A DNA stretch of 64,000 nucleotides from an uncultured bacterium. GTDB taxonomy: Bacteria; Verrucomicrobiota; Kiritimatiellia; RFP12; UBA1067. The notes under the pieces were generated by a model. It was given only the letters and a program-made list of their open reading frames with translations. It was not told the origin of the DNA and made no database searches. Position 1 is the first letter of the stretch. Each line of letters begins with the position of its first letter. Of the stretch, positions 9,001-63,069 are shown one piece after another. Both the position numbers and the translations under genes were made by a program. The DNA lies in the NCBI GenBank assembly GCA_902780865.1, contig CACZHC010000048.1:2890-66889 (forward strand). Reading direction: 5' to 3'.

Positions 9001-9450
9001 TTGACGGTCATGTCGAGCTCGACGCACGGGTCGAAGCGCTCAAGCACCTCCGCTGCGGGGATCTCGATGCCCCTGACGATGTCATTCGGGTTGAAGCGCT
9101 CGAAGACGAAGAGCTGGCCGTCCCTCGGCTTGCCGAGATCGGCTCCCTTGCCGCCATTTCTCGCCGCCGGCGCCCAGACCTTGGCCTGGTACCAGAAGAA
9201 GTATTCCCAGCCGTCGGGCATGCCGTCGGAGTCGGTGTCGTCCATCGTCGGATCCATGCGGTACTGCTCGCCCACGCCGCGCGGCTCAGGGCTCCAGAAA
9301 CCGAGGTCGAAGCCGTCGGCATCGGTCCAATCGCGATTGTTCTCTTCCTTGAAAGCCGCCTTGTACGCCGCCTGCTCGGCGTCGCTGAAGCTCGGGTCGC
9401 TCAAGGTCAGGCTCGTTTCGTTGAGGCCGTGGTGGAAGCCGCGGAACGAG
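1..9450 (-). CDS. Giant secreted/surface protein, distal part (3' end lies beyond position 1): thrombospondin-type-3-like Ca-binding repeats plus LamG/concanavalin-like domain
   Basis: My own reverse-strand translation stays open from about 9450 down to 1. It is absent from the ORF track because no stop falls inside the window. It reads ..SFRGFHHGLNETSLTLSDPSFSDAEQAAYKAAFKEENNRDWTDADGFDLGFWSPEPRGVGEQYRMDPTMDDTDSDGMPDGWEYFFWYQAK.. DxDxDGxxD motifs recur (DTDGDGVPDGWELY, DSDGDGVTDYFAW, DPDGDGWSNYSEF). A LamG-like block DFFKQFTVEAWIRPEKK...GYVDEVRIWDGVRTASEISANYAKKM lies at about 5150-5780. Plus-strand ORFs 42..2744 and 3510..9455 are R/V/D/G/H-rich antisense shadows. Confidence 0.8.
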
Positions 9451-13614: not shown

Positions 13615-14061
13615 TTATTCACCCTTCTCTTTCGAAGCTTCCTGTTTGGCCTTTATTGCGGCGTTCTCCTGCTCTATGCGGTCGCGGACGAGCGTCTGCG
13701 CCTTTATGCGGTTCTTCTGAAATGCCTCTTTCGCGGCGGCCATCTTCGCCTGCGCCGCCTTGAACTCCTCGGAGTCCTCGCCCTTCTCCTTCGCCTGCTC
13801 GAGCGCGGCCTGGGCCTCGCCGAGCATCCTGGCGACGCTCTTCTGCTCCTTCTTGAGGGCGTCGAGCTCCTTGAGGTACGCGGGGTCGTGCATGCGCGCA
13901 TAGCGCGTGTCGTAGGGATCGGCGGGCTTCTCCGGCCCTGCGCCCCAGCGGGAGCGCAGGCACACGGCGGTCACCGCCGCGATCGCGAGAAGCGCGACTC
14001 CAATCACGACGGGCAGAAGCCATTTGGGCTTTCTCGACTCTGCTGCGTTCTCAATCGCCAT
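13615..14061 (-). CDS. Small single-pass membrane protein with long coiled-coil tail, sandwiched between the two giant genes
   Basis: 148-aa ORF. TM helix WLLPVVIGVALLAIAAVTAVCL is followed by a K/E/A-rich heptad-like sequence (LKELDALKKEQKSVARMLGEAQAALEQAKEKGEDSEEFKAAQAKMAAAKEAFQKNRIKAQ). Its start overlaps the stop of the upstream gene by 11 nt. Its stop lies 3 nt before the next ATG. Confidence 0.75.
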   Translation of the reverse strand: MAIENAAESRKPKWLLPVVIGVALLAIAAVTAVCLRSRWGAGPEKPADPYDTRYARMHDPAYLKELDALKKEQKSVARMLGEAQAALEQAKEKGEDSEEFKAAQAKMAAAKEAFQKNRIKAQTLVRDRIEQENAAIKAKQEASKEKGE

Positions 14062-20000: not shown

Positions 20001-23000
20001 GGGCCGGGGATATCAATCGGAACGACGACGCGGAAGAAGTTGTCCATAGTGCCGCCATTCTCAACGTCAAGCGCAAGTTCTTCTGTCTTTTCGCCCTTCT
20101 CGAAATTCGCTGTGCCATCGCGCTTAAAGGGAATCATTGAAACAGGCGTCCAGCAGCCATCAAGCCGACCATACCAGTTCGTAGAAATGATTTCCACCTC
20201 TTCGACGTAATTTGTCTCGATGGTGAAGGAGTTGTCGTCCATCGGCACAAGCCCTTCGACAGTATTTGTCGAGATTTCGACGACAATCTTGTAATTGTCG
20301 TAGTCCTCATTGCTGCGACACCAACCATTCACTGCATCGAAGTAAATTGTTCCAATACCATTGGTAAAGCAAGAAGAATAGACTGCCGCATTTTCGATAT
20401 TGCGCATTACAATCTGGCCAGCGAGATTTTGCTTAATCGAAGACGTTCGCGACAAGAAACTCTTAGATGTCGAGGAATAAGGCAAATAGTTTTGATTGGC
20501 AACAAGATTGCCGCTGGCAACCCCGGCGGGGAATGTATTGCCGTGCCGACAATCTACAATTCGCCACAACGTTCTCTCGCCGCCTTTTGTTTTCAGAACG
20601 CTCTCCGTACCAAGCTGGAGGTTGAACGGCAAAGTCTCACTATAAGGATCGCTCTCTGCATTGATATGCGTCCAGTACGTATTAAGCGTGTCGCGGTTGT
20701 CTTTATAGCCTTGGTAGTCAATTGGGCACTTTGTATTCGTATCGCGATTCATCAGGAGAACGCGCCCAGAATCACCATTAGTACCGCCAATTTTAGTATA
20801 CGGCTTCCCTTCGATGACATGCAGGTCAATAAGGTAGTCGACTGGCGTGACGTTTTCGGTCTCGGTCGCGAGGAAGTGGATTCGGTACAAACCCGTCTCG
20901 GTGATGTCGGCCGTGCTTTCGAACGTCTTCGTCGGATCGTACACAGAGTAGATGACGTTGGTGACACCGCCGTAGAGAACCGCAGGCGTATTGGTAATCG
21001 TTCCCGCCGCCTCGTTAACATCCCAGGTCGTCTTGTCCATCTTCGGCGTATCAAGCCAGATGTTCAACCTTAGCCCATCGCGCAGAACTACGGAGTTCGT
21101 AGAGAAGTCAGGATCGCTCAGTATCTCGTATTCGGCCTTGATGCGATCGTCTGTCGGGATGTTCGGGCCGATGCGGCACTCGTCATACGCGCCATTGAGC
21201 GACCATTCGTTGGGAGAGCTGCCCTGCGCACCAAACGCCAATGCACGCGCACCATTAGAAACTGCAGTTATCGAGCCGCTCCCGATCTTTCGCCCATTGG
21301 AATAGACCGTAGCTGTCGTGCCATTGTAAACAAACACCAGATACACCCAACCTTCGTACATATCGTCTACAGCGCCCGATAGCGTAAAGGAAGAGCTGCC
21401 ATTGCCGCGGACGAGAAGTACCGTAGACGAACCATTCGCGGTCTCTATGCTCCAGCCATCGTTGCTGTTGCCGTTGTTCTTTGTGCCGGCAAGCCGTGGA
21501 TAATTTCCCCTGGCGTTCATCTTGAAGAAGCCAGAAAATGTAAACACGCTGCCTGTCGAGAACGACTTGGATGTCTGAAGGCGGTTTCCGTTCTGGACGC
21601 TTGCCACAGAGCTATTCATGCGGCCATTGCCAATTACGCCGTCAACGGAAACCATCTGGTTGAGATTGGCCGATGAGGCACCGCCTTTTTGGGGCGTGGC
21701 GTAGTTTTTCTGGGCGGTGGAGTCGTTTGACCTTGCAGAAGCTGCCTGTGCCGCCGGAATCTCCTCGTCCATGTGCCAGACGCCGGTATAGTCGCTCCAG
21801 ACCTCGGTCGGCTCGTTGGCGACGGGCGGCTCGGCATCGGGGCGGATGTTCCAGTACATCGTGACCGTCATTCCGGTCGGCGGCAAAGTTGCGAGCTTAA
21901 GCCAGACAATCGACTCACCGGTCGTGTTCCAGGTAGCGGCTTCGTAAGGGAGGATCTCGCCGTTGGAGTCAACAAAGAGCATTCCGCTCCCGTCCTGGCC
22001 CGCGAGCGAGTAGTCGAAGCCGGGCATGCGCGCGGTCGATATTTTTACCGGCAGGGGGATGTTTGTCACCGTTTCCGTCGCGCCCGAACGCGCCTTGAAG
22101 TAGATCTCCACAGAGTCGTGGTAGATACGTGCGGGGTCATCCCACATGTCGAACGAAGCCGTCCGAGTAGCCGCCGCCCAGCTTGGCGTTTCGTCAATCG
22201 TGGCGCGGATAATCCATGTGCCCGCCTTGTCGATTGCCGTCACGTCGTTAGTCCATGTCTCGACCGCCGACGCAGTTTCACCGAAACCATATTCATACCT
22301 GACTGTATCAAGGCCGTAGTTCGCGGCGATAAGTATCTCGTTCGGCGTGCCGCCAACGCGCCAGCCCTTAAGCGAAAGCGCCGTAATTGCATTGGCCGCC
22401 GCTCCAATAGTCCACTCACCTGAATACGGTTCAGCAGTCACGGGGTCGACATCCCAGACATAGTTCTCGGCCTCATCATTGCCAAGAAGCGAGAACGTGA
22501 AGGAATGCGCACCGCCATCGGTGGCGTTCGTGACGCCGGCGGTTAGCGCATACCGCGCGTAGTCGAGAGCGGCGAAGCCCTGTTTTTCGGTGCCGTCGTA
22601 GACAAGATCTGTCCTGGGCTCGGGCTTCGCGACTTTAATCGGAGAAATCGTCCACGAACCGTCAAATGGCTCTATCGTGTTGTCGGACCACGCCGTATTA
22701 ACCGTATCGTCCAACGACACTGAAAATGTATACGTCCCCGCGTTCGTCGCATTCGTAACGCTCGATGTGTCGAATGTGCAGTATTCGAGGAAATCATCGC
22801 CGTATGTAACACCGACTTTGGCCGTACCATCGTAAGTGAAGTCTGCCGTTGTCGGCTTTTCTATCGTCCGCTTAACGATCGACCAGTTGACGGTCTTCTC
22901 GCCAGTACCGCCACCAACCCACTCAAGATCGGGGCCAGGCGTTACCTTGAACGAGTAATTGCCGACAGCAGTAGCGTTCGTATCGCCGCTACCATCTACA

Positions 23001-24196
23001 TACGTGTAAGCTATGCCAAAGTCAAGTGCAACCTGGTTGTTCTTGTTAAATGTAAATGGGCCAACAGACGGAAGCGCCACTTTTGTCTCAACAAGCTGAG
23101 TAATACGGACAATAACAACACCACTGCCGCCATTGCCACCAGGAGCAGTCGTACCGCTACCACCACCGCCGCCACCGAGTCCATTCGTCCCAGAGACTGC
23201 ATCAACCGACGTTGAACCACCTCTTCCACCGCCGCCGTCACCGCCAGCTATACCAGTGCTCAATTTTGTGCGGCCACCACCGCCGCCACCAGCATAATAT
23301 ATCGACTCTCCAGTAATGTCGATAGAAAGCCCCGCACCGCCTTTACTTTTTGTAGAGGACGCATCCTGACCAACAGCACCTGCACCGCCGCCGCCCCCGC
23401 CATATGCGACCGCGCCACCTCTACCACCAGCAAAACCAACTTCCGGGGCGACAGCCGTAGAGACGCCTCCATTTTGCGGAGAAGCAGCGGTTGTATAACT
23501 TGCCGAGCCACCGCCGCCACTTGCACCATCATGCCCTACGGACTGCGCACCACCGCCGCCGCCGCCATGGGCAACAATTACATCAAATGATGAGTCCAGA
23601 CCATCACCTCCGTCGGCGGCGACATCAGTTGATGCCGCCGCTTCGCCACCTGCACCAACGGCAATAGAATACACACCACCGACAAGGGTTAGATTTGTCT
23701 CAATCAGGCCACCAGCACCACCACCGCCGCCAGCGCCACCTTGCGTCGACGTACTCGTGCCGCCAGCGCCACCCCCGCCAACAACGAGAACGCGCACATT
23801 GGCCCTGGCAGAATCGTCAACGGTTAGCGAACCTGCGGCTGTAGTGTCGGTGAACTTGAGAACGAGATGATCGTAGGCATCTGCCGTTGCTGGCGTTCCG
23901 TCGGCATTGAGATAAATGACTGTCGCGTTGCTGGACCAAGTGACCTTACCAGCGTTGACGAGCTCGCGCACATCCGCGCGCGCGGCGAGAGAGAACGACA
24001 ATGCCAACAGTGCGGCAAGAGAGGCAAGCCGACGGGAGAGAGTCGTGAGAGAAGAGCCGATGCAGGTGCCGAAGAATTGCGAGATGCCGGCAAGAGTATG
24101 CGCAACGCCACGCGCGGTCACGCTTGTGTGCGTGCGCGTACGCGGCATCGCGAGCGTCCGCGAGGACGCCGCGACTCTCGTTGTGCGGTCCATCAT
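14051..24196 (-). CDS. Giant (3381 aa) secreted surface protein: glycine-rich N-terminal domain, MBG/YDGT Ig-like repeats, DUF2341-like and LamG-like domains, long beta-rich body
   Basis: Uninterrupted 10.1-kb ORF. Hydrophobic signal-like segment LASLAALLALSFSLAARA. Gly-rich block VLVVGGGGAGG...GGNGGSGVVIVRI. Repeated FTYDGTAKVG...NAGTYTFSVSL units. DUF2341-like IYFKARSG...IVWLKLATLPPTGMTVTMYWN, followed by a LamG-like segment (NDGWSIETANGSSTVLLVRGNG...WVYLVFVYNGTTATVYSNGRKIG). The exact start codon is uncertain. Confidence 0.85.
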   Translation of the reverse strand: MMDRTTRVAASSRTLAMPRTRTHTSVTARGVAHTLAGISQFFGTCIGSSLTTLSRRLASLAALLALSFSLAARADVRELVNAGKVTWSSNATVIYLNADGTPATADAYDHLVLKFTDTTAAGSLTVDDSARANVRVLVVGGGGAGGTSTSTQGGAGGGGGAGGLIETNLTLVGGVYSIAVGAGGEAAASTDVAADGGDGLDSSFDVIVAHGGGGGGAQSVGHDGASGGGGSASYTTAASPQNGGVSTAVAPEVGFAGGRGGAVAYGGGGGGAGAVGQDASSTKSKGGAGLSIDITGESIYYAGGGGGGRTKLSTGIAGGDGGGGRGGSTSVDAVSGTNGLGGGGGGSGTTAPGGNGGSGVVIVRITQLVETKVALPSVGPFTFNKNNQVALDFGIAYTYVDGSGDTNATAVGNYSFKVTPGPDLEWVGGGTGEKTVNWSIVKRTIEKPTTADFTYDGTAKVGVTYGDDFLEYCTFDTSSVTNATNAGTYTFSVSLDDTVNTAWSDNTIEPFDGSWTISPIKVAKPEPRTDLVYDGTEKQGFAALDYARYALTAGVTNATDGGAHSFTFSLLGNDEAENYVWDVDPVTAEPYSGEWTIGAAANAITALSLKGWRVGGTPNEILIAANYGLDTVRYEYGFGETASAVETWTNDVTAIDKAGTWIIRATIDETPSWAAATRTASFDMWDDPARIYHDSVEIYFKARSGATETVTNIPLPVKISTARMPGFDYSLAGQDGSGMLFVDSNGEILPYEAATWNTTGESIVWLKLATLPPTGMTVTMYWNIRPDAEPPVANEPTEVWSDYTGVWHMDEEIPAAQAASARSNDSTAQKNYATPQKGGASSANLNQMVSVDGVIGNGRMNSSVASVQNGNRLQTSKSFSTGSVFTFSGFFKMNARGNYPRLAGTKNNGNSNDGWSIETANGSSTVLLVRGNGSSSFTLSGAVDDMYEGWVYLVFVYNGTTATVYSNGRKIGSGSITAVSNGARALAFGAQGSSPNEWSLNGAYDECRIGPNIPTDDRIKAEYEILSDPDFSTNSVVLRDGLRLNIWLDTPKMDKTTWDVNEAAGTITNTPAVLYGGVTNVIYSVYDPTKTFESTADITETGLYRIHFLATETENVTPVDYLIDLHVIEGKPYTKIGGTNGDSGRVLLMNRDTNTKCPIDYQGYKDNRDTLNTYWTHINAESDPYSETLPFNLQLGTESVLKTKGGERTLWRIVDCRHGNTFPAGVASGNLVANQNYLPYSSTSKSFLSRTSSIKQNLAGQIVMRNIENAAVYSSCFTNGIGTIYFDAVNGWCRSNEDYDNYKIVVEISTNTVEGLVPMDDNSFTIETNYVEEVEIISTNWYGRLDGCWTPVSMIPFKRDGTANFEKGEKTEELALDVENGGTMDNFFRVVVPIDIPGPVRFRIRRTTADPNRFPDVSSFILLDNIIASIPAMSADLVSAGHYDAEKTGTQTLGWELATSVPYPSIGDTTNIVAYAKPEFTLNVGDGSTPDTTKFFSSATMHYRWRYLNQTLSQPVSAWKEIDLNPDDDFKSIRPLELPSRPGDVEYWFEYQLQAPYYKYVDYSGAANASIDYTEERGVLTNRLGDASIASGGSDWYFRIRDGKSDYAGLDIVFRRGSSAAEERVHMALAENHVWRGFVQTKENQTGEIQYRIEAMDEQTTAFAEYAEKTNFWYCTVDNPRFPVSEALVPGGEGSWSKLTLDATTGYVMFQIDDTEKSSMALTVVHADYQNANGWSDALARKDSQGRGPIFVGTSTTNEYKIGVSPSKQTFGEDFANWGSMAATNESWTFPTGLTDIQPSHMYGRTAYEPFVSDQNGLWDVGPGMWVAKKYMISSGADAGVGLQMEGQGKGFFQLIDKDSAPRGVESVEFNARLAQFITFEDFNYYDGDVKTSMTNYTFISRVAYDFKQNKFTGNASLSMIAAYLPNKGCYEARWEWISNPNNQKKGGQRLCLYRWNFTSEGKNATLLTAWTNGVNNANAAFAMAAPNALNEAQTFMPFYITVSNANSRTWVAAGVCMTHQNLRENTFPSGNTWNIVACNDNSTQRLKSGTFGVLATNCEGFFGKPQYSPNVVFTAADELKLADGKAGYYTQKARTAPAGLVLRTQGFGTDDTNWNILPGRMATTNVTEFACGVVAAPVPQTLSIYFGTPGRADWNLKAPDKTVTVNNFGGDRFVVPIYKTENCSIRFGVGGTTSSTRRDIAVDSVVLKPWRGGNWDDPDVWPILPEWADDQHRNKAVGHTNFVFTSAWTTNHTILLSAKRAGFETPSAIRSPLMDGFADDGSHGTGYIRGIGLGMISVAYENAQENAVLALQIATNGVDYTTIGGYDKSFSDKIWTTITNFNFAAMTPAQRKKGILNTYIGLHDVKGAMRLMVPTNTILAVRNITDTSKFGDVTITSITCSDEPPVDVHSWWGWNIRTVGGDQDSEKMMFLDDFSTEAGGSGLSLAINNSVDENYSISRIDVADRESYIQHKPFVQTPTFTSNIVGEVVFKARKYSEADPTATVTLYGSRNATETDEGKWERIDGAVFMVSNAWYETYRAKMDPKYKSFRLAVAGVEGVVEDSDGGGNGLPAGANDPPPRVLLDEMFVSEAVNAIMGFKHVGCFRHDMSGLGVVPNVPSRDEQPICEEAWGVQCEIYGAQLASDIDFTHTPRVKLHWFDGIAPWGYENWKDSPSAHSAWLSRAIETDEDRFVYRSTMRTSPDAVIPMSLAAPSYVQYTLEVVFYTKENPTVPVTNWLNSSDWKIPEWYRPLDLNAQYGGSGDFAAYNILDNIAPGWAWINEVNLFGDFVKWRNTDEDCQFIEIAHPPEADVSGWTVRLLEGQMGNNWVITNDLARFGRDGLSGTKQLPAEDAEVNMVFRVIGSPLSRSSGRLKKSDGTLDGVWKVDNPTLVFTSDGVVSYYDPIVFQLVRTSGIVEHEIIVQGTNYLESLEIENPGYLGEMRDWMAARMPDSEIVMAGYDFGGPANSLSVTQHFGRCGMTIAPDDWNHPTNDWKTVVKMTPGHHNIGQVIDPNHPVPAGEEVLVYFTVTGDHIEQSLDGSNFTNGMFSAIVTKNNPVGTNVIYRVDPWYVLDNVRTGSVSLVDQVQQTKATQPFEYTLSGVAKGVSNNVTVVASAALNPKFGTDWGVPEDDPYRDAIIDWLEGGTDLYGNPFEDVASGEIRLATHRSWWSGAVMTNLTLREMYWLDMDPTVGKLSLLAGTTFDPNGIEHIVTKAMGESSLVLTNRRLYVYMMISNENETVAAPTHPRGAHDFTTHWTPYVLRGVSPGENSQEYVASTGEWESVTFKITGMLMNSATSFYVADNKVPLRHFVFNANSFSAEGLSKIEVYDPYSPLSVGYNAGWKRWWDKNGYCPVVFFWMIDTRLPPIGVEQLQEDNYYGD

Positions 24197-34721: not shown

Positions 34722-34724
34722 AAG

Positions 34725-38172: not shown

Positions 38173-39243
38173 TTATGGTGCCATGTCTCGACCAAACGAC
38201 TCGCATGCCCGCCAATCTTTCGAACGCGGGTAAAAAGGGTCATCACAAAGATTCTGTTTGTTCCATTCAAGATTGCGGTCAAGATTCTTGGGGTTGAGGT
38301 AATAAGTGAACCTGACAGATGCGACAGGCACATGCGGTGAGACAGTGGCCAAAAGTCGAATATCGCCATATATCTTTCCATAATAGGCCTCAACAACTTT
38401 CCCCTCCTCATCCCGTTGTGTGCGAATGCGAAAGCAGAAACAACGGTTCTTGTCATAACTCTCTCCCCATTTTAATGCCTTGCCAGGCCCATTCCAGCAT
38501 AGATATTCGCTTGTGTAGCCCTCTAAAGGAGCGCTCCTTATCTTCAATTTCGAGCTCGCGCTCGTCGCCACTTCCACCAAACCATTATCCGCACCGATAA
38601 ACCTAACCAGCATGGAATCTTTATAACTTCGCCCTTTTACTCCTGCCCCATTGAAATCCTCACCAAAATCCTCACGCGGCAGACGCTTAAACTCGACATC
38701 AGCAACTTCGCCCTTGCCAATGGGAGGCAGCCATTCACCCTTCATAAGATCGAAGTGCAGCACACCCTCCGACTTGGTAAAAAGATCTTCCGAACTCTCA
38801 TCATGCCCATACTGGCCAACTTTCTTTACGAACAAAGGGATCGGATGCACGATGCGCTGGACGCGAAGCGTGACTACGAGATTGTCCGGCTGCCAGACGC
38901 CGAAAATGTCCTTGTGCTTGAAGGTATAGCCACCACCGCATGAATTATCATAGTATCCATCTGGTGCATTTCGCACATAACACCCAGCCTCTCCGCGGTT
39001 GGTTTCGTTTGACAACCTACATCTTCCCGACTTGTCCGTTCGGTTAGAAGAAACATTAGGCCCAGAATAGCCCTTCCATGCTCGCCATCCATGATTAACC
39101 GAAAAACTGCCTATGACTTCGACATCATGCAGCGGCTCGCCTGTAATCTCGTCAAGGACAAGCGCCTCTATCTTCGCCGTGTCGGAGAATGCACATCCCG
39201 ACACTATGAATCCAACAATGCATACCATTACATTTAGTCTCAT
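38173..39243 (-). CDS. Lipoprotein (356 aa), hypothetical
   Basis: Lipobox MVCIVGFIVSGC. The stop/start is contiguous with the upstream 1282-aa gene. Confidence 0.7.
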   Translation of the reverse strand: MRLNVMVCIVGFIVSGCAFSDTAKIEALVLDEITGEPLHDVEVIGSFSVNHGWRAWKGYSGPNVSSNRTDKSGRCRLSNETNRGEAGCYVRNAPDGYYDNSCGGGYTFKHKDIFGVWQPDNLVVTLRVQRIVHPIPLFVKKVGQYGHDESSEDLFTKSEGVLHFDLMKGEWLPPIGKGEVADVEFKRLPREDFGEDFNGAGVKGRSYKDSMLVRFIGADNGLVEVATSASSKLKIRSAPLEGYTSEYLCWNGPGKALKWGESYDKNRCFCFRIRTQRDEEGKVVEAYYGKIYGDIRLLATVSPHVPVASVRFTYYLNPKNLDRNLEWNKQNLCDDPFYPRSKDWRACESFGRDMAP

Positions 39244-42200
39244 CAGCCACCTCCATTGTTTTCCTTGATCTTGTCAAACAGTCGGTATACAAATGGGTAT
39301 GCTAAATTCTTCCAGTCCGAGTGGTGCCAAAGCAACACATTATTGTCATTTTCATCTCGCCTGTCGACTGGCCACTTATCAGTGTTAGCCATACAATCGT
39401 CCATCAACGAAATCCCTGTTATTCCACTTCGAGACTTTAATCTATTCGCCCCTGCCGCAAAGCCCTCCGCCGGGATGGCATCGCCGAGGAATCGCGCTCG
39501 CAGCGTATAGCGATAGTCGGCATCGGCTACTGCGAATCGGTTTGTCGAGTACATTGCGTCCGACTCCGCCCTGAACGGAGTGAAGAGCGGATGGGTAATC
39601 ACGTCTTCGCGTACAAGTGAATTCACGTTAGTCTTAAAGCCGTCAAGGTAATAAGTTGGGTTAAGAGCATAGTACGAGTTGACACCCCATCCGCCCTCGC
39701 ATTCCACATCAAACCACGGCCATGCGTTTAGGCCATGCAAAAGCGAAGACCCTTTCAGCAACTCCTGGATCACCCAGACCGTCTGTCCCACGAGAGACTG
39801 GTTTGTATCGATGTTGCCTACCACATTTTCAGTATCCGAATAGCAGTTGACGGCATTTGTAATTCCCGAGAATCGGCCTTTCCAGGAGAGCGAACTGCGG
39901 AAGTCATCCGCCCCAAACAGTCCGTGCCAGTTTGCGGCGCGATATGCGTTTGTGACGTTGGCCCAGTCAGAGTCCACCATGGTCTCCGCGTATTCCAGCG
40001 CATCATATGCCTCCATCGATACAGCCGCGTTGAGCATATAGTACCTGGAATAGTCAAGAGCATGATCCTTTATCGCGGCGGACGTCAGAATGTTTCCGAG
40101 GGAATGTGCTATGAATACCCTGTTCGTTCCCGGAAGCTGCGCCGTCTCGGAGGCAAGAGCTCCCGCTGTCTGGAATGCGTGCAGCACGTTGGCATAGTAG
40201 TCCGGCGATGCGGTTCCGTCGAATATCCAGTTTGATAGAAGACCGTCCATCTGCTCCTCGTCGCCGTACCAGTCCACGACGGTGAACATAGAATCCAGCC
40301 CCGACTGCCACAGCCGCTTGAACATCTCAACGCCGGTGGACACCGCCTCGTCTGGATTGACGTTGAACCCGTGTACGAAGAAATAATGCCTGTCATCGCA
40401 TTCAGAATCTGGCCTGTTCTGCGGAATTCCCAAGGAATTTCCCCTCGTCCGAGCATCGCCGGCAACCGATCTGAGGCACAGCCACCTGAACATGTCCATC
40501 ACAGACGAGATACTCAGGTTGGCACTCGTCTGCAAAGCAGGGCTTCCAAAAGGACCACCCTGCGCCCTGAGGGTCATCCCGGAAATAGTGCCGCGACCCT
40601 CTATCAGAAAAACCCCCTTGTCCGGCGACGAAGCCATCAAGTCAAGGAATGGGCTTGGAAGCACGACTCCGTCCACGAGATCGACGACGTTGGCTTCGTA
40701 CGCATAGTCAGAAAAATAATATCCGCATTTTCTGCGATCCAACTTATGGAAAGATCCGGCCTCGTCGCGAGAATACGATGTCCAGACGGCGTTTACACAA
40801 TTGGCCTGAAGTTCCCAGCGAACAGCATTACGTACTGTCTGCGGAGCCCCAGGCGGAAACACTCCGCGCATGTCGATCCACACTGGCGTGAAGTCTTCCA
40901 AATCACGACGGCCGTTCACAACACTGTCAAGACAATTGCGCCCGAGCGCAAACGGCGAGTCGCTGTTGTAGTCCGCTCCAGTGCAGATGTCGCCAGAATC
41001 GAGATCGTCATTCACCCAGAACCGGAAGGTCTTCGTGCCCGCCCGTGCGATTGCAGCCTCGGCGTCGGTAATCGACCCGTCACGATCGTAGTCGAAGACG
41101 AGGACCGGATCACCGAGCACATAGAGCGTCGCAGAAAGACCGCCAGCGACATTGCCCGGCCTGGGATTGCCGTAGTAGTCGTAAGTACTCTCATGGACAT
41201 GCTCAGTCAATAGCCCGGCGGCGTTCTCCGCTATCCAACCATTGCCAACGACAACTTCGTTGCCGGAGCGCCGAGTGGCCGAGTAGTCCTGATAGCTTTG
41301 AGTCTGCGGCAACCCGTCGATCTTCGCCTGCCAGCAGTACCAAGGCGCATACTTGTCATTGTGCCCGTCGCAGTTGAGCCACCGCATCGTGAGGCGATAA
41401 GCATTGCCCTTTCGCATCTTTAGGGTTGTAGCATTAGCAGCGCTGGGCACCCCCATGCTGATTTTCCGGACGCGCATGTCGTCAGGGCCAAGACCTTCGA
41501 TCTTCATTTCCCATGCCGCGTAGTCGCCGTAGATGTTGAACTCGAGTTCCCTGAACTGCAGAGTTTCGGGCGGAAGGCCGCCGTCTGCTCCGTCGTTTGG
41601 ATCGGATTCCTGGCCAACCTCCGCCGCATCCGACACGCCGTCGTTGTCTGTGTCACCATCGGTGTCCGAAGGGTCCGTTCCGTTTAGGTATTCGCCAAGG
41701 TTCGAGAGCCCGTCTTCGTCAAAGTCGCCGGTAGCCCCGTTCGTACCGTCAGCAGAACGCGGATCAAGACCATTAGAATGCTCCCAGTCGTCCGGCAGTC
41801 CGTCTCGGTCGGTGTCGATGTAATGTGGCGACGTTCCAATTGACATTTCCGCGCCGTCCGGAAGCCCGTCGCCGTCGGTGTCGGAGCTGGCGGGATCCGT
41901 GTCGGTGCCAAGCCGCACAATGACCGTCTTGCCGCCCTCCACGAAGCCGGGGACCTTGTACGCGATGCGGTAAAGCCGACGCCCAAGCATCGACTGGACT
42001 CCAATTCCCGCGTTCCGCCCGTCGACCGCATCGCCGACGTTGTACCGGTACAGCATGAGCAGCTCGTCTGGGCGATGAGTGCGCACGACCACTTGGAACG
42101 AAACGGTATTCGTCTCGGCGCCGTCGCCTTCTCGCCCCATATTCTCATAGCTAATGCACACCGCCTGGCTGCCAGCGAACGCAACCATGCCGACTTTCAC

Positions 42201-43091
42201 CGACGACACGGGAGCATTAGTCCTGAAGAAGAGCCCGTCATCCGACATCGGTGCGGCCACGACCGCCTGAGGCTCGATCAGGGACGAGAAGTCTAACGCC
42301 CCCACATCCATCCCTGGGTTGTCGTACCCGGCGCGGTTGAAGAACACGGCGCCTTTTGACGAAACCGTCACATTGGACACCGTTGTGCCCTGCATGGTGA
42401 GCGGCATCGGAAGCTCCCAGCACGCGCATCCGCAGTGGCTGGTCGACAACGCATAAGCGATGTCGTCAAAGTCGCCATAGGCCGTATCTATCCACAACGG
42501 ACCGACCACGACAGTCGTCCGGCCCAGCTCCTCTCCATCGCCGAGTCCGTCGCCGTCCGTGTCGGCGGCGATGGGAGACGAGCCCATTGCAATCTCCTCA
42601 CCGTCCGGAAGCCCGTCGCCGTCCGTGTCGGAGCTGGTTGGATCCGTCCTGTATGCGAAGCGCTCGTCTGTGTCGGGAAGTCCGTCGCCGTCTGTGTCGG
42701 TAGCGTCGCCGACGGAGACGAACGCCTGCGCGTTTCCGTTCGTGCCAGAGACACATTCGTCGGCTATCGCGACAAATGCATTGCTGACGCACTGCGACAC
42801 GTCAAGCGTGAAGACCTTCGCAAGTCCAAGGAGATTTGTCCCGGCATAGACGTATACCAAGTCGTCGACGGGACGACGGCCGAATGGCCACGCGACGACG
42901 ACCGAAGTCTCGTTGCTTCCGCGCAAAACCGCCGCGGCCATTAGGTTCGTGGCAATGGGCATCGCGCCGAAGCCCTCGCTCTCGCCGACGTCGCAGGCGT
43001 CGGGAAGCCGCGTCGATGCGCCAGTCGCCCGGAGACTGGCTGTCCTGGCTGTCCGCCTCGCAAAGAACCGCCGCGGGAGAGTGGGGGTCAC
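39243..43091 (-). CDS. Large protein: TSP3-type Ca-binding repeats, central beta domains, C-terminal alpha/beta-hydrolase (lipase/esterase-like, GxSxG = AHSLG)
   Basis: DTDGDGLPDTDE, DTDGDGLGDGEE and DTDRDGLPDDWE repeats. C-terminal HYFFVHGFNVNPDEAV...NRVFIAHSLGNILTSAAI is a serine-hydrolase nucleophile-elbow pattern. The N-terminus is uncertain, as no signal peptide is present in this frame (see 42802..43299). Confidence 0.8.
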   Translation of the reverse strand: MTPTLPRRFFARRTARTASLRATGASTRLPDACDVGESEGFGAMPIATNLMAAAVLRGSNETSVVVAWPFGRRPVDDLVYVYAGTNLLGLAKVFTLDVSQCVSNAFVAIADECVSGTNGNAQAFVSVGDATDTDGDGLPDTDERFAYRTDPTSSDTDGDGLPDGEEIAMGSSPIAADTDGDGLGDGEELGRTTVVVGPLWIDTAYGDFDDIAYALSTSHCGCACWELPMPLTMQGTTVSNVTVSSKGAVFFNRAGYDNPGMDVGALDFSSLIEPQAVVAAPMSDDGLFFRTNAPVSSVKVGMVAFAGSQAVCISYENMGREGDGAETNTVSFQVVVRTHRPDELLMLYRYNVGDAVDGRNAGIGVQSMLGRRLYRIAYKVPGFVEGGKTVIVRLGTDTDPASSDTDGDGLPDGAEMSIGTSPHYIDTDRDGLPDDWEHSNGLDPRSADGTNGATGDFDEDGLSNLGEYLNGTDPSDTDGDTDNDGVSDAAEVGQESDPNDGADGGLPPETLQFRELEFNIYGDYAAWEMKIEGLGPDDMRVRKISMGVPSAANATTLKMRKGNAYRLTMRWLNCDGHNDKYAPWYCWQAKIDGLPQTQSYQDYSATRRSGNEVVVGNGWIAENAAGLLTEHVHESTYDYYGNPRPGNVAGGLSATLYVLGDPVLVFDYDRDGSITDAEAAIARAGTKTFRFWVNDDLDSGDICTGADYNSDSPFALGRNCLDSVVNGRRDLEDFTPVWIDMRGVFPPGAPQTVRNAVRWELQANCVNAVWTSYSRDEAGSFHKLDRRKCGYYFSDYAYEANVVDLVDGVVLPSPFLDLMASSPDKGVFLIEGRGTISGMTLRAQGGPFGSPALQTSANLSISSVMDMFRWLCLRSVAGDARTRGNSLGIPQNRPDSECDDRHYFFVHGFNVNPDEAVSTGVEMFKRLWQSGLDSMFTVVDWYGDEEQMDGLLSNWIFDGTASPDYYANVLHAFQTAGALASETAQLPGTNRVFIAHSLGNILTSAAIKDHALDYSRYYMLNAAVSMEAYDALEYAETMVDSDWANVTNAYRAANWHGLFGADDFRSSLSWKGRFSGITNAVNCYSDTENVVGNIDTNQSLVGQTVWVIQELLKGSSLLHGLNAWPWFDVECEGGWGVNSYYALNPTYYLDGFKTNVNSLVREDVITHPLFTPFRAESDAMYSTNRFAVADADYRYTLRARFLGDAIPAEGFAAGANRLKSRSGITGISLMDDCMANTDKWPVDRRDENDNNVLLWHHSDWKNLAYPFVYRLFDKIKENNGGG

Positions 43092-44789: not shown

Positions 44790-44826
44790 AGTACGAGTGA
44801 CACAGTAACGGTGGCAGGGGGGGGCA

Positions 44827-48917: not shown

Positions 48918-48957
48918 CTCTCTGCGTACTCTGCGCCTCTGCGCCTCTGCGTTAAAA
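48918..48957. repeat. CTCTGCG-iteration / CTCTGCGTTAAA repeat (family B), intergenic
   Basis: ctctctgcgtactctgcgcctctgcgcctctgcgttaaaa. Related copies occur at 50711-50818, 60415-60570 and 61886-61988. Confidence 0.75.
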
Positions 48958-50710: not shown

Positions 50711-50818
50711 TTTTAACGCAGAGTCGCAGAGACGCAGAGTAGTATTGTAGCTCTTTGAAGTTTTCTCCGTATCTATCTTTCTCTGCGCACTTCGCGTCTT
50801 CGCGTCTCTGCGTTAAAA
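50711..50818. repeat. Family B palindrome (TTTTAACGCAGAG...CTCTGCGTTAAAA), intergenic
   Basis: ttttaacgcagagtcgcagagacgcagag ... ctctgcgcacttcgcgtcttcgcgtctctgcgttaaaa. Confidence 0.85.
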
Positions 50819-59189: not shown

Positions 59190-59222
59190 CTTAAACCTAT
59201 TTCTCCAAAGTGATGTGAGCAA

Positions 59223-59335
59223 TATAGCAAAAACACCGCCGAACCGTCATTCGAAAAAAATCTTCTTATGTCTACCACTTATCTACAACGAATGTTGATA
59301 ACTTTTTTGATGGCATTGTGCCACGGGCTGAGAAT
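59223..59335. promoter_or_regulatory. dnaA upstream region with DnaA-box-like TTATCTACA and TGTTGATAA
   Basis: ccacttatctacaacgaatgttgataac. Confidence 0.45.
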
Positions 59336-61309
59336 TTAATGTTTGCCGCGCTTGATGATCACCGCGAGGATTGCAATGTCTGCGGGATTGACTCCGGAAA
59401 TGCGAGCTGCCTGGGCTAGTGTTTCTGGGCGCCATTTCTTCAGCTTCTCTCGACTCTCGTACCTAACCGACGCGCACTTGTCATAATCCAGCCACTTCGG
59501 AATCTCGATAGCTTCATCAATCTTCGCCTTTTCTGCCGCTTTCCTCTCCTGTTCTATGTACGGCGCATAGTGTCGCATAATATTTAATTCGTTCTCAATC
59601 TCCTCTTCGGTGAACCAACGAGAGATTGGTGCTTTTGTGCCTGCGGCTTTTGAGCTAACGGCATTGGCGAGATAGTCTTTTACTTTTGAGACGGCCTCCA
59701 AGTAATCCGGTGGTTGTATTTTTATCTTCTTTGCTGCGTCCAGCAACCTAAACCTCGCATTGTCCTGTCGCAGAATCAATCGACGCTCTGCCCTGCTTGT
59801 GAACATCCTATATGGCTCGTCAGTACCTTTCGTCACAAGGTCGTCTATCAGCACCCCGATGTAGGCATCTTGCCGGCTAAGAATAAGAGGTGTTTCGCCT
59901 TTGACCTTCAGAGCGGCATTTATCCCTGCCATTATTCCCTGGGCTGCGGCTTCTTCATATCCCGTAGTGCCGTTGATCTGCCCTGCAAAGAATAGCCCAT
60001 CGATTCGCTTTGATTCAAGAGAATGTTTCAGTTCGCGGGAATCAATACCGTCATATTCGATTGCATACGCATAAGCAAGGAATTCGGCGTGCTCAAGACC
60101 AGGTACCGATCTAACCATCTTCTCTTGGATATCGCGAGGCAAACTACAGGATAGCCCATTAGGATAAATAACTTCGCCCTTGGAATCCTCTGGCTCAAGC
60201 ATCACATGGTGCTGCTTAGCACCTACAAATCTGACAATTTTATCCTCAATTGACGGGCAATAACGCACTCCCGCACCCTCAATTGCGCCGCCGTAGAGTG
60301 CAGAAGCATCGAGATTCTCCCTTATAATTCTATGTGTTTCTTCCGTAGTATGGGTCATCCAGCAAGGCAGTTCACCAAGCGATTGTTCCACGTGGAACAT
60401 TTCGTTCGGTTCAGATTTTAACGCAGAGACGCTAAGACGCGGAGTACGCAGAGATTGCTTTGAGCCGTGTTCCACGTGGAACAATTTATCTTCTCCAACT
60501 TTCCCAACATAACTTCTGAAAACCTTTGCGTACTCTGCGTCTTCGCGCCTCTGCGTTAAAGATTGAACATCAGAATGTTCCACGTGGAACAATGGCCGAG
60601 GATTCTCGCCGTCCTGACGCTGGCAGGCGTCGAAGTTGCAGCTTGAAGCCTTTAGCCGGGGCGGGGTGCCTGTTTTTAGCCGAATAAGCGAAAAACCGAG
60701 CTTTGTGAGGCAGTCTGACAGCAAATTTACTGCTGGACGGCCGTCTCCGCCTGATTCCTGGCACTCTTTTCCGATCCAGACTCTGCCCCTTAGGGTGGTT
60801 CCGGCTGTCAAAACGACTGCCTTTGAGGCGATTAAGCCGTTGTGCTCGGTAACTACACCAGAGAGTTTATAGGAATTATTATCATCGCCGCCGACTGAGT
60901 TGCCGCTGGCTGATGGTTCGGTAACAAGTCCAATAACGGCATCTTCGATAACGCTTAGGTTAGGCTGTGTGGCGATTACCTGCTGCATCCTCAAGGTGTA
61001 TTCTGCCTTGGCGCATTGAGTTCTTGTTGCTTGTACAGCCGGACCACGACTTGAATTGAGCGTTTTGGCCTGAAGGGCGGTGGCGTCGGCGTTTTTTCCC
61101 ATTTCGCCACCAAGTGCATCGAGTTCATAGACGAGATGACTCTTGGCGAGACCACCGATTGAGGGGTTGCATGGCATCTTTGCGATACTGTCTACTTTGG
61201 CGGTGATGAGGAGGGTATTGAGCCCCATCCGCGCCGCTGCGAGAGCTGCTTCAGCCCCTGCATGGCCACCGCCAACCACAATAATATCAGTATCTATCAA
61301 CACGCTCAT
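59336..61309 (-). CDS. mnmG: tRNA uridine 5-carboxymethylaminomethyl modification enzyme MnmG (GidA) with a repeat-derived insertion of about 70 aa
   Basis: [19 protein letters not shown] (FAD site) and [15 protein letters not shown]. 657 aa, versus the roughly 620-630 usual for the family. Confidence 0.95.
60381..60592. repeat. Composite palindromic insertion inside mnmG: three TGTTCCACGTGGAACA palindromes interleaved with an inverted pair of family B (TTTAACGCAGAG / CTCTGCGTTAAA) arms
   Basis: tgttccacgtggaaca occurs at about 60384, 60467 and 60573. tttaacgcagagacgctaagacgcggagtacgcagag at about 60417 faces ctttgcgtactctgcgtcttcgcgcctctgcgttaaa at about 60525. Confidence 0.9.
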
Positions 61310-61545
61310 AGGCGATAAAGATTATATCAATTATCAACTATATTGTGAACAGTTTTTTTGATTAAATTATGCGACATATTAAAAGGGGATAAATGACTGT
61401 TTTTTGCAGATATTTAAATAAAAAGTCAAATAGAATGTTTATAACTCAGTTGTCAAGTGAAATATATTAACAGTTATCAAAAACTTATTAACATGAAATT
61501 TTAAAAATTTAGCTTTAGTTATCTTGAGGGGTCAGGGGTCTGTGA
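61310..61545. other. Candidate oriC: AT-rich tract with DnaA-box-like 9-mers at the gene-orientation switch, upstream of mnmG
   Basis: TTATCAACT 61331-39, TTGTGAACA 61343-51, TTATCAAAA 61474-82, TTATCTTGA 61519-27. Long A/T runs span 61380-61520. All genes to the left are on the minus strand and all to the right on the plus strand. Confidence 0.6.
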
Positions 61546-61580
61546 TCAGTAGTCAGAGTTGGAGGGTGGTGGGGTGTCCC

Positions 61581-61835
61581 ACAAAATTTTTAGAAACTCC
61601 GATGGCTGGCAAAGTGGCTTCACTAACGTTCCGCCTCGTGTTTCACGCAATACAGCCATGCTCAAGGTTCTCTTCATAGCTTAGTTTAGGAGCTGCCTTC
61701 GGCAGAGGAGGTCTGGAGGACACGTCCTCCAGCTCAAAACTACTAAGTCTCTAAATGTTAATGGGTTGAAATGCGCGAAGCAAAGGCGAAGCGGTAGCGG
61801 AGCCTCTTTTGCCAACCATCGGAGTTAAATTTTTG
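61581..61835. repeat. Element bounded by inverted repeats of about 30 bp (..AACTCCGATGGYTGGCAAA..) enclosing nested hairpins (MITE-like or small structured RNA)
   Basis: The left arm is acaaaatttttagaaactccgatggctggcaaag. The right arm is cttttgccaaccatcggagttaaatttttgg. The interior carries ctgccttcggcag and ctggaggacacgtcctccag, bracketed by cttagt/actaag. Confidence 0.6.
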
Positions 61836-62020
61836 GTACAACCCCTAACCCTAAAACTCCTACTTCCCAAAACTCGCTGCCCCTCTGCTACTCTGCGCCT
61901 CTCGGCTCTCGCTCCGCTCGGCTCGGTCGCTTCCCCACGGGTCGCGCCCACCCTCAAGGGGCGGTTACGCGTCTCTGCGTTAAAAAAATTCATAAAAGAT
62001 CTCCACCACCACTCTCCAAC

Positions 62021-62107
62021 TCCAACTCTGAACTCCAACTCCTGTCTCCTGTGTACTGACTCCTGCCTCCCAACTCCAACTCCAACTCTGAACTCCAACT
62101 ATACTCC
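62021..62107. repeat. Direct repeat CCAACTCCAACTCTGAACTCCAACT x2 (word family of 53471-53545)
   Basis: Read directly. The two copies are about 55 bp apart. Confidence 0.75.
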
Positions 62108-62181
62108 TGTTCTTTGTGGCTGATATTGATTTAGCGAGGTTGCATTAATCGGTTAAAATTTGATAAAATACACACATTCAA

Positions 62182-63036: not shown

Positions 63037-63069
63037 AAAACAAAACCAAAAAAGCAAAGGAGAAAAACC

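What the first reader, a model, noticed from the sequence alone, without database searches (positions are those of the whole stretch)
60381..60592. mnmG carries a stop-free composite palindrome of about 210 nt (3 x TGTTCCACGTGGAACA plus inverted TTTAACGCAGAG arms)
MnmG reads ..[89 protein letters not shown].. By comparison, E. coli MnmG has only about 20 residues between the equivalent P and the PC..TH motif.

The extra 60-70 codons or so consist of three perfect 16-bp palindromes, each encoding (L/M)FHVE(H/Q). These alternate with two mutually inverted arms of the family B repeat, which also occurs intergenically at 48918, 50711-50818 and 61968-61988.

A nested cruciform-capable structure inside an essential, origin-proximal housekeeping gene is unusual. 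It suggests either repeat invasion or a functional DNA or RNA structure.
Basis: partly seen in the sequence, partly recalled or inferred. Interest (0 to 1): 0.8.

Follow-up and report, generated by a model that had tools for sequence, protein, structure and literature searches.

The report
Chromosome centromere sites inside mnmG gene
The three 16-base palindromes inside this tRNA-modification gene match the standard bacterial chromosome-partition site (parS), kept in a tolerant protein loop next to dnaA across a whole superphylum, and the sequences between them are ordinary dispersed repeats that inserted in frame.

Summary
TGTTCCACGTGGAACA occurs exactly three times in the window (60384, 60468, 60576; none expected by chance), all inside mnmG, with 48-nt inverted arms between them. 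An independent assembly from another sample is identical.

It is the canonical chromosomal parS site bound by ParB, identical to Pseudomonas parS2/parS3. mnmG lies next to dnaA-dnaN.

The 16-mer sits in the same MnmG loop in 34 species-representative genomes of Kiritimatiellota, Verrucomicrobiota and Lentisphaerae. It is read there in all three frames (FHVE, CSTWN, VPRGT), so the DNA is conserved, not the peptide. Non-PVC MnmG proteins have a short loop without it.

In the window's clade, 119 close homologues carry 2-4 sites. Variants differ by whole modules bounded by parS, and spacers hold nested repeats. The "family B" arms (TTTAA plus 3-4 octamers CGCAGAGN) are a dispersed repeat that is widespread in metagenomes. 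The large palindrome is not conserved.

Main gap: no ParB or ParA gene lies in the 73 kb I could read, and there are no binding data.

Verdict: a known kind of element (a parS cluster) in an unusual, evolutionarily instructive setting. Moderate interest.

The parts
59336..61309 (-). mnmG (gidA) coding sequence, 657 aa, hosting the insert
   Evidence: ORF list. Pfam GIDA E=2.6e-144 and SAM_GIDA_C. PDB MnmG hits at E about 1e-145.
60576..60591 (.). parS copy 1 in gene order: TGTTCCACGTGGAACA, read as (L)FHVEH
   Evidence: Exact match. Identical to Pseudomonas parS2/3. This position is kept in all close homologues.
60468..60483 (.). parS copy 2 (middle), read as (L)FHVEH
   Evidence: Exact match. 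In 11 of 119 close homologues, and in L087 DNA, the same perfect 16-mer is read in another frame as VPRGT.
60384..60399 (.). parS copy 3 in gene order, read as (M)FHVEQ, directly before the conserved SLGELPCW motif
   Evidence: Exact match. The same position (FHVEQ-LPCW) holds the single parS of many Verrucomicrobiota MnmG genes.
60521..60568 (-). Family-B repeat arm in module A, between parS 1 and 2. TTTAA plus octamers CGCAGAGN, read as [13 protein letters not shown]
   Evidence: Inverted-repeat arm. TTTAACGCAGAG on the - strand at 60549-60560. Absent in deletion variant L084.
60409..60456 (+). Family-B repeat arm in module B, between parS 2 and 3, read as [16 protein letters not shown]
   Evidence: Inverted-repeat arm. 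TTTAACGCAGAG on the + strand at 60417-60428. Absent in deletion variant L085. In L086, L088, L089 and L090 it carries nested GC-rich inserts.
60389..60583 (-). Segment of MnmG (residues 243-307) with no counterpart in solved MnmG structures. It extends a loop of insertion domain 2
   Evidence: phmmer alignments to 2ZXH and 3CP2 break at query residues 242/308, which correspond to 3CP2 residues 248/254. Domain boundaries are from PMC12397908.
57774..59222 (-). dnaA, immediately downstream of mnmG (context: origin-proximal). The gene caller starts it at 59189
   Evidence: Pfam Bac_DnaA and Bac_DnaA_C. dnaN follows at 56423-57517.
61310..61500 (.). AT-rich stretch (20-29% GC) upstream of mnmG, at the point where gene orientation and AT skew switch. 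Candidate oriC/unwinding region (inferred only)
   Evidence: Composition. AT-skew sign change and divergent gene orientation. Only weak DnaA-box matches.
50712..50817 (.). Intergenic family-B inverted doublet (two arms, 40-nt loop, no parS)
48920..48956 (-). Intergenic single family-B arm, in the 55-nt spacer between two co-directional genes
61890..61984 (-). Intergenic single family-B arm split by a GC-rich nested insert of about 68 nt. The same insert lies inside the mnmG insert of relatives L086 and L088

Best explanation
The three palindromes are parS sites, the chromosomal centromere bound by ParB, placed about 0.7-0.9 kb from the likely origin region and next to dnaA.

From established ParABS biology, applied here by inference, the mechanism is as follows. 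ParB dimers recognise each 16-bp site, close as CTP-dependent clamps and spread onto neighbouring DNA. The resulting origin-proximal complex is segregated by ParA and can load SMC.

The sites can sit inside a gene for two reasons. The palindrome has no stop codon in any frame (CSTWN, FHVE, VPRGT). The host position is a loop of MnmG insertion domain 2 that tolerates extra residues.

In this rumen Kiritimatiellae clade, an ancestral cluster of 1-2 sites grew to 2-4 sites. Growth came from duplication or recombination between parS copies and from in-frame insertion of dispersed REP/MITE-like repeats (family B, TTTAA plus CGCAGAGN octamers) and of further elements nested inside them. Only in-frame, stop-free events survive, because MnmG must stay intact.

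The inserted peptide is probably a functionless surface loop. The 210-nt composite palindrome is a by-product of one forward and one reverse arm flanking the middle parS.

Shown: sequence identity to parS, DNA-level conservation, modular polymorphism. Inferred: ParB binding, segregation function, neutrality of the peptide.
For: 1. The 16-mer is identical to experimentally defined parS2/parS3 of P. aeruginosa and to P. putida parS. It has one mismatch to the TGTTNCACGTGAAACA consensus.

2. There are three copies within 208 bp. No other site with up to 2 mismatches occurs in the window or in the 9 kb beyond it. In close relatives the sites are likewise confined to mnmG within up to 22 kb.

3. 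Position: mnmG-dnaA-dnaN. Gene orientation and AT skew switch, and a 20-29% GC stretch lies, just upstream of mnmG.

4. In species-representative genomes, the 16-mer (up to 1 mismatch) lies in the same MnmG loop in 34 Kiritimatiellota, Verrucomicrobiota, Lentisphaerae and PVC loci. In the 29 of these loops that could be parsed there are 53 sites, read in three frames: 36 FHVE, 13 CSTWN and 4 VPRGT. The surrounding loop sequence is otherwise unrelated.

5. Non-PVC MnmG proteins have a 48-51 aa segment with no site.

6. Internal control: in other phyla among the same loci, the same class of 16-mer lies beside recognisable parB genes (L054, L057, L058, L061, L079, L080).

7. Close relatives keep parS while everything between varies. 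Architectures among 119 homologues include 75 P>P<P, 11 with the middle site frame-shifted, 10 P<P and 8 P>P. The DNA of L084 and L085 differs from the window by exactly one parS-bounded module.

8. parS within coding sequence is normal: 9 of 10 P. aeruginosa sites are in CDS.

9. A Verrucomicrobiota member (Akkermansia) has ParABS homologues according to PMC10197239.
Against: No ParB or ParA gene was found in the window (Pfam scans of the larger window ORFs; ParB-motif scan of all six frames). None was found in the 9 kb extension or within 10 kb either side of mnmG in any PVC locus. The presence of the cognate protein in this lineage is therefore untested.

oriC itself is not mapped. DnaA-box matches are weak and GC skew is uninformative.

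There are no binding or genetic data.

Some copies in relatives carry one mismatch (L086, L090), so not every copy is under strict constraint.

The origin and mobility mechanism of family B are unknown. No associated transposase recurs near copies.
Confidence: 0.82

Rival explanations
1. The whole 210-nt unit is one selfish composite MITE. The 16-bp palindromes are its own termini or internal repeats and have no cellular function.
For: The unit is a near-perfect large inverted repeat. Family-B arms are dispersed and polymorphic.
Against: Other family-B copies lack the 16-mer. The 16-mer is present in the same loop in distant phyla that have no family-B arms. It is the canonical parS and sits next to parB genes in other phyla.
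Confidence: 0.04
2. The palindromes and arms form a selected DNA cruciform or mRNA hairpin. This structure would regulate mnmG expression or replication, and structure rather than protein recognition would be the selected feature.
For: The predicted fold is very stable (-64.4 kcal/mol, z = -11.5). The P>P<P architecture is the commonest in the clade (75 of 119).
Against: At least 18 of 119 close homologues have only one arm, and others have two forward arms or large nested inserts. Distant relatives have parS only. The 16-mer is invariant in sequence rather than covarying. There is no Rfam match.
Confidence: 0.05
3. The 16-mer is bound here by a different sequence-specific protein, for example a CACGTG-recognising regulator or a ParB-like paralogue with another role. 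It would act as an operator rather than a centromere.
For: No ParB gene was seen in the accessible DNA. The site lies inside a transcribed gene.
Against: All 16 positions are identical to a well-characterised parS. The sites are clustered, origin-proximal and otherwise rare, which is the parS pattern.
Confidence: 0.06
4. FHVEH/FHVEQ is a functional peptide motif of MnmG in this lineage, and the DNA palindrome is a by-product of coding it.
For: FHVE is the commonest reading (36 of 53 sites).
Against: The same perfect 16-mer is read as CSTWN (13 sites) or VPRGT (4 sites) in other lineages. In 11 close homologues the middle site is frame-shifted. The motif is absent from MnmG outside PVC and from solved structures.
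Confidence: 0.01
5. The insert is an assembly artefact, a chimeric or collapsed repeat.
For: Palindromes and repeats are error-prone in short-read assembly.
Against: There is an identical 17.3-kb contig from an independent sample. The exact protein is seen on 6 contigs, and 119 related variants come from many assemblies and sources.
Confidence: 0.01

Closest known systems
Chromosomal parS sites of the ParABS system (P. aeruginosa parS2/parS3, P. putida parS, B. subtilis parS consensus TGTTNCACGTGAAACA)
   Same: The 16-bp palindrome is identical to the Pseudomonas sites. The sites are clustered near dnaA, rare elsewhere, and located inside a coding sequence, as are 9 of 10 P. aeruginosa sites.
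   Different: All sites lie in one loop of one enzyme gene. That placement is conserved across a superphylum in three reading frames. parAB is not adjacent, unlike the usual mnmG-rsmG-parA-parB arrangement. ParB binding is untested.
Rickettsia palindromic elements (RPE): selfish palindromic repeats inserted in frame into protein-coding genes (own knowledge: Ogata et al. 2000)
   Same: The family-B arms and their nested inserts are dispersed, hairpin-capable repeats. They are found both between genes and in frame inside an essential-type gene, where they add a peptide segment to a tolerant loop.
   Different: Sequence and lineage are unrelated. Here the insertions are confined to spacers between functional DNA sites. 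No sequence or protein comparison with RPEs was run.
REP/REPIN/BIME-type and MITE-type dispersed repeats
   Same: Short units occur as singlets and as inverted doublets, mostly intergenic and in many copies. Nesting is seen.
   Different: No RAYT or other transposase was found nearby. Target-site duplications are not resolved. The arm is built of tandem octamers. The motif occurs in metagenomes from many habitats with GC of 42-68%, which is broader than a typical lineage-specific REP family.
Multi-repeat plasmid and chromosomal centromeres (F sopC tandem 43-bp units, Myxococcus and Streptomyces parS arrays; own knowledge)
   Same: Several ParB-type sites are separated by short spacers, and the copy number varies among relatives.
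   Different: There are only 2-4 copies. The spacers are unrelated repeat elements, not a regular tandem unit. The whole array is translated.

Membership tests
Chromosomal parS (ParB-binding centromere) | 16-bp palindrome matching the TGTTNCACGTGAAACA-type consensus | tested here: met
   Three exact copies of TGTTCCACGTGGAACA. The sequence is identical to P. aeruginosa parS2/3 and P. putida parS.
Chromosomal parS (ParB-binding centromere) | Located in the origin-proximal domain, and rare elsewhere | tested here: met
   The sites are adjacent to dnaA-dnaN, with a strand and AT-skew switch and an AT-rich stretch within 1 kb. No other site with up to 2 mismatches occurs in 73 kb. oriC itself is not mapped.
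Chromosomal parS (ParB-binding centromere) | Conserved as DNA among relatives, independently of local coding | tested here: met
   Same MnmG loop in 34 PVC loci. 53 sites in the 29 parsed loops, read in three frames. In L087 the frame-shifted middle copy is still perfect.
Chromosomal parS (ParB-binding centromere) | Cognate ParB (and ParA) encoded in the genome | not testable with these tools
   None found in the window, its 9-kb extension or the flanks of PVC loci. The only indirect support is ParABS homologues reported in Akkermansia.
Chromosomal parS (ParB-binding centromere) | Specific ParB binding or loading, and a segregation phenotype when mutated | not testable with these tools
   Needs ChIP-seq, EMSA and genetics.
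In-frame selfish palindromic repeats (RPE-like) / REP-MITE-like elements (family-B arms) | Multi-copy and dispersed, with hairpin-forming inverted arrangement | tested here: met
   Four loci in the window, as singlets and doublets. At least 120 metagenome stretches. The doublet at 50712-50817 and the mnmG pair are 83% complementary.
In-frame selfish palindromic repeats (RPE-like) / REP-MITE-like elements (family-B arms) | Presence/absence polymorphism at orthologous sites among relatives | tested here: met
   L084 and L085 each lack one arm-bearing module. L086, L088, L089 and L090 have nested inserts. L001 and more distant loci have no arms.
In-frame selfish palindromic repeats (RPE-like) / REP-MITE-like elements (family-B arms) | Inserted in coding sequence in frame without stops | tested here: met
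   The ORF is intact in the window and in all 119 homologues. An arm at a second MnmG site is read as FNAETQRRREI in P0091.
In-frame selfish palindromic repeats (RPE-like) / REP-MITE-like elements (family-B arms) | Target-site duplication and/or an identifiable mobilising enzyme | tested here: inconclusive
   No clear duplication could be resolved from the copies read. No protein family recurs within 4 kb of 85 copies.
In-frame selfish palindromic repeats (RPE-like) / REP-MITE-like elements (family-B arms) | Sequence homology to Rickettsia RPE families | not tested
   No RPE sequences were available to compare. The resemblance is in behaviour only.

The most novel reading that the evidence does not exclude
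A surface loop of MnmG serves as the dedicated, superphylum-wide centromere cassette of PVC bacteria, possibly holding the only parS sites of the chromosome. It would have been retained there after parAB moved away.

In rumen Kiritimatiellae the cassette would be actively remodelled. The family-B octamer arrays would be functional accessory elements rather than passengers, for example spacing ParB loading sites, binding a second origin-region protein, or being targeted to ParB-bound or hairpin DNA. Centromere evolution would then directly drive the evolution of an enzyme's sequence.
Probability: 0.12. Interest if true: 0.7.

Novelty: new member of a known kind. Interest (0 to 1): 0.45.

Why it matters
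It replaces an apparent oddity, a giant palindrome inside a housekeeping gene, with a concrete and testable assignment: the origin-proximal centromere of an uncultured rumen Kiritimatiellae lineage.

It gives an unusually clean natural example of a DNA-binding site constraining a coding sequence. The same 16-mer is kept in one enzyme loop across Kiritimatiellota, Verrucomicrobiota and Lentisphaerae in all three reading frames, while the peptide around it drifts, expands and absorbs mobile repeats.

Practical uses:
- The mnmG parS cluster is a ready marker for the origin region in PVC metagenome bins.
- It is a target for ParB ChIP and Hi-C in cultured relatives such as Pontiella.
- Variable-length MnmG proteins in these phyla should not be read as annotation errors or new domains.

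Tried and rejected
1. AlphaFold2 model of the 657-aa protein, built with 45 close homologues. Mean pLDDT was 35 and the model is unusable, so the insert position was taken from sequence alignment to PDB entries instead.

2. Search for ParB and ParA. I ran Pfam on the larger window ORFs, a motif scan (GERRxRA / ENLQR) of all six frames of the window and all fetched loci, and a 10-kb contig extension. No ParB or ParA was found in any PVC sequence. The tools give no access to the rest of the genome.

3. oriC mapping. GC skew is uninformative. DnaA-box scans give only single-mismatch boxes at background density. Only the orientation and AT-skew switch and the AT-rich stretch remain as hints.

4. 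Rfam scan of 59000-64000 at E <= 0.1. Nothing relevant.

5. Literature search for parS in mnmG or in PVC bacteria, and for the family-B sequence. No description was found. Livny et al. 2007 is not held.

6. Search for a transposase linked to family B, by all-against-all comparison of ORFs within 4 kb of 85 metagenome copies. No recurrent family.

7. Protein-motif, assembly-artefact and single-composite-MITE explanations were rejected, as set out under the rival explanations.
Full report
**1. Observation**

The sequence TGTTCCACGTGGAACA occurs exactly three times in the 64-kb window, at 60384-60399, 60468-60483 and 60576-60591. No additional match appears even with two mismatches allowed, and none is expected in shuffled sequence.

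Between the copies lie two 48-nt arms, 60409-60456 and 60521-60568, that are 83% complementary. With the outer palindromes they make a composite inverted repeat. As single-stranded DNA it would fold at -64.4 kcal/mol, with z = -11.5 against shuffles.

Everything lies inside the 657-aa ORF 59336..61309 on the minus strand. This ORF is MnmG/GidA by Pfam and by comparison with solved structures.

Alignments to A. aeolicus and E. coli MnmG break between query residues 242 and 308, so about 60 residues are extra relative to E. coli. The break corresponds to residues 248-254 of the 3CP2 construct. That position lies in insertion domain 2 (E. coli residues 161-174 and 193-348, according to PMC12397908).

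The TTTAACGCAGAG motif of the arms recurs at 48945, 50712, 50806 and 61973. The only correction is that the arm unit is an octamer, CGCAGAGN, repeated 3-4 times after TTTAA.

**2. Not an artefact**

The window is positions 284-64283 of a 121.9-kb rumen-metagenome scaffold. A contig assembled from a different sample is identical over 17,333 bp, including the whole insert. The 120 closest MnmG proteins in the public collection (79-100% identity, many assemblies) all carry a related insert at the same place.

**3. What the palindrome is**

TGTTCCACGTGGAACA is the canonical chromosomal parS site, the centromere-like sequence bound by ParB. It is letter-for-letter the parS2/parS3 sequence of Pseudomonas aeruginosa and the parS of P. 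putida. It has one mismatch to the general consensus TGTTNCACGTGAAACA.

parS sites typically cluster near the origin, and most P. aeruginosa sites lie within coding sequences. Here mnmG is followed directly by dnaA and dnaN. Gene orientation and AT skew switch in the 870-bp intergenic region just upstream of mnmG, which contains a 200-bp stretch of 20-29% GC. The origin itself could not be pinned down: DnaA-box matches are weak and GC skew is flat.

No other parS-like sequence occurs in the window or the next 9 kb. None occurs outside mnmG in up to 22 kb of close relatives.

**4. The decisive comparative evidence**

Using MnmG to fetch loci from species-representative genomes shows that the organism is a Kiritimatiellae bacterium. 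The nearest representatives have 62-73% amino-acid identity and are rumen or gut MAGs.

The 16-mer (up to 1 mismatch) lies at the same position of mnmG in 34 loci. These are annotated as Kiritimatiellae, Pontiella, Verrucomicrobiota, Opitutaceae, Chthoniobacterales, Victivallales/Lentisphaeraceae and "PVC group".

In the 29 of these loops that could be parsed there are 53 sites. Of these, 36 are read as FHVE(H/Q), 13 as CSTWN(I/N) and 4 as VPRGT. That is all three reading frames, and the rest of the loop is unalignable between lineages. The DNA is therefore conserved and the peptide is not.

MnmG from other phyla in the same set has a 48-51-residue segment here with no site. In several of those other phyla the same class of 16-mer sits beside recognisable parB genes instead (L054, L057, L058, L061, L079, L080). 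This serves as an internal control for the identification.

In a few Verrucomicrobiota the loop site has decayed while intact sites lie just upstream of mnmG (L032, L037) or in its 3' part (L026, L040). The linkage of parS to mnmG persists there even when the exact place moves.

**5. Anatomy in the window's own clade**

DNA from seven close relatives shows a modular structure: parS, spacer, parS, and so on, with 2-4 sites.

- L084 equals the window minus the first module. L085 equals the window minus the second. The breakpoints fall at the parS copies, as expected for recombination between them.
- L090 has two tandem forward-arm modules.
- L086, L088, L089 and L090 have GC-rich elements nested inside the arms. 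One of these is the same element that splits the intergenic arm at 61890-61984 of the window.
- In L087 the middle site is a perfect 16-mer but is read as VPRGT, with compensating frame changes on either side.

Among 119 close homologues parsed at the protein level, the architectures are 75 P>P<P (the window type), 11 with the middle site frame-shifted, 10 P<P, 8 P>P, and rarer forms with four sites.

The first and last sites are the most constant. Some internal copies carry single mismatches, mostly at the central CG. The large palindrome is thus common but dispensable, whereas at least one or two perfect parS copies are always kept.

**6. The family-B arms**

Each arm is TTTAA followed by 3-4 octamers CGCAGAGN. 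The window holds two single arms (48920-48956 and 61890-61984), one intergenic inverted doublet without parS (50712-50817), and the mnmG pair.

Four of its six reading frames are open (read directly from the sequence). Two of them are seen in use: LTQRR/SALK in the loop, and FNAETQRR at a second hypervariable site of MnmG (residues 551-559) in a relative.

These come from many habitats, with GC of 42-68%. Most are single arms with unrelated flanks. The motif class is therefore widespread, not private to this lineage.

I found no literature or Rfam record of it and no recurrent neighbouring gene that could mobilise it. Its behaviour is that of a REP/MITE-like element: dispersed, in singlets and doublets, nested, and polymorphic between relatives. 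When it lands in a gene it behaves like the Rickettsia palindromic elements, which insert in frame. That comparison is from my own knowledge and concerns behaviour only, not membership.

**7. Mechanism proposed**

ParB dimers bind the three sites and load as CTP-dependent clamps. They build the origin-proximal partition complex, which ParA segregates and which can load SMC. This is established ParABS biology, applied here by inference.

The site can live in a gene because the palindrome is stop-free in every frame and the host loop tolerates from about 0 to 165 extra residues.

The local array grows and shrinks by recombination between parS copies and by in-frame capture of dispersed repeats. 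Purifying selection on MnmG filters out anything that breaks the frame.

The translated insert is most likely a functionless surface loop. I could not confirm exposure structurally, because the AlphaFold model failed.

**8. What is missing**

No ParB or ParA gene is present in the 73 kb I could read or within 10 kb either side of mnmG in any PVC locus. The tools give no access to the rest of these genomes. The only indirect support is a report that Akkermansia, a Verrucomicrobiota member, has ParABS homologues. This gap, together with the absence of binding data, is why confidence stops at about 0.8.

**9. Rivals**

- A protein motif is excluded by the three-frame usage.
- An assembly artefact is excluded by independent assemblies.
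- A single composite MITE is excluded, because family-B copies elsewhere lack the 16-mer and distant lineages have the 16-mer without family B.
- A selected cruciform or mRNA hairpin is unlikely. The architecture is not conserved, and the 16-mer is invariant rather than covarying.
- A different DNA-binding protein using the same site cannot be excluded without a ParB, but nothing points to it.

**10. Novelty and score**

parS clusters, parS inside genes and in-frame palindromic repeats are all known. Three things appear to be undescribed in the literature I could search:

- the superphylum-wide placement of the centromere in one specific loop of mnmG;
- its reading in all three frames;
- its expansion by nested in-frame repeats in rumen Kiritimatiellae.

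I rate it a new member of a known kind, with interest 0.45. It is a neat, testable case of a cis-acting DNA site shaping a protein, and a useful origin marker for PVC genomes. It is not a new type of system.

Noticed in passing
window 48920-48956, 50712-50817, 61890-61984; loci L091-L170: The family-B arm (TTTAA plus 3-4 octamers CGCAGAGN) is not lineage-specific. Most copies are single arms with unrelated flanks. No literature or Rfam record and no recurrent neighbouring gene was found.
   Followed up: partly
window 59636-59662 (MnmG residues about 551-559); alignment A1 columns 759-789: There is a second hypervariable, in-frame insertion site in MnmG of close relatives, with 0-23 extra residues. 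Examples are AP/ST-rich inserts and, in P0091, a family-B arm read as FNAETQRRREI.
   Followed up: partly
window 61890-61984; L086, L088, L089, L090 mnmG inserts: A GC-rich element of about 68 nt (TCGGCTCTCGCTCCGCTCGGCTCGG...GGGGCGGTTACG) is nested inside family-B arms, both between genes and inside mnmG of relatives. L089 carries a further insert within it, so repeats are nested inside repeats several levels deep.
   Followed up: partly
window 61500-62130: The intergenic region upstream of mnmG is packed with other repeats. There are nested inverted repeats at 61551-61572/62006-62027 and 61595-61613/61808-61826 (19 nt, 95%), and 27-nt direct repeats CTCCAACTCCAACTCTGAACTCCAACT at 62014 and 62074. 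ORFs called here (e.g. 61809..62123) are probably spurious.
   Followed up: no
L026 position 5202 and L040 position 11565 (Akkermansia loci); L032 positions 9305-9852: In some Verrucomicrobiota, perfect parS sites lie in the 3' part of mnmG or just upstream of it instead of in the loop. L032 keeps a decayed remnant (SSTWNV) in the loop. This suggests relocation of the centromere within the same gene neighbourhood.
   Followed up: no
L017 and L027 (Kiritimatiellae/UBA3783 representatives), mnmG loop: The loop segments are very long (212-214 aa). L017 has at least three family-B arms. L027 has tandem duplications of [13 protein letters not shown] and a long PE(G/S)AVNA-type tandem repeat. The loop is an expansion hot spot by several mechanisms.
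   Followed up: no
window 1-24200: This region is high in GC (58-64%, against about 50% near mnmG) and holds very long ORFs on both strands (3510..9455 +, 1981 aa; 9286..13611 -, 1441 aa; 14051..24196 -, 3381 aa), some overlapping antisense ORFs of more than 1000 aa. The 1282-aa ORF at 39243..43091 has bacterial TSP3 repeats. These are probably giant surface proteins. Not examined.
   Followed up: no
window 33678-35534: An AbiEii-type nucleotidyltransferase toxin gene lies next to a DUF6577 gene, which looks like a type IV toxin-antitoxin or abortive-infection pair. Two paralogous ATPase_2/DUF234 genes lie at 24984-26309 and 44765-46117.
   Followed up: no
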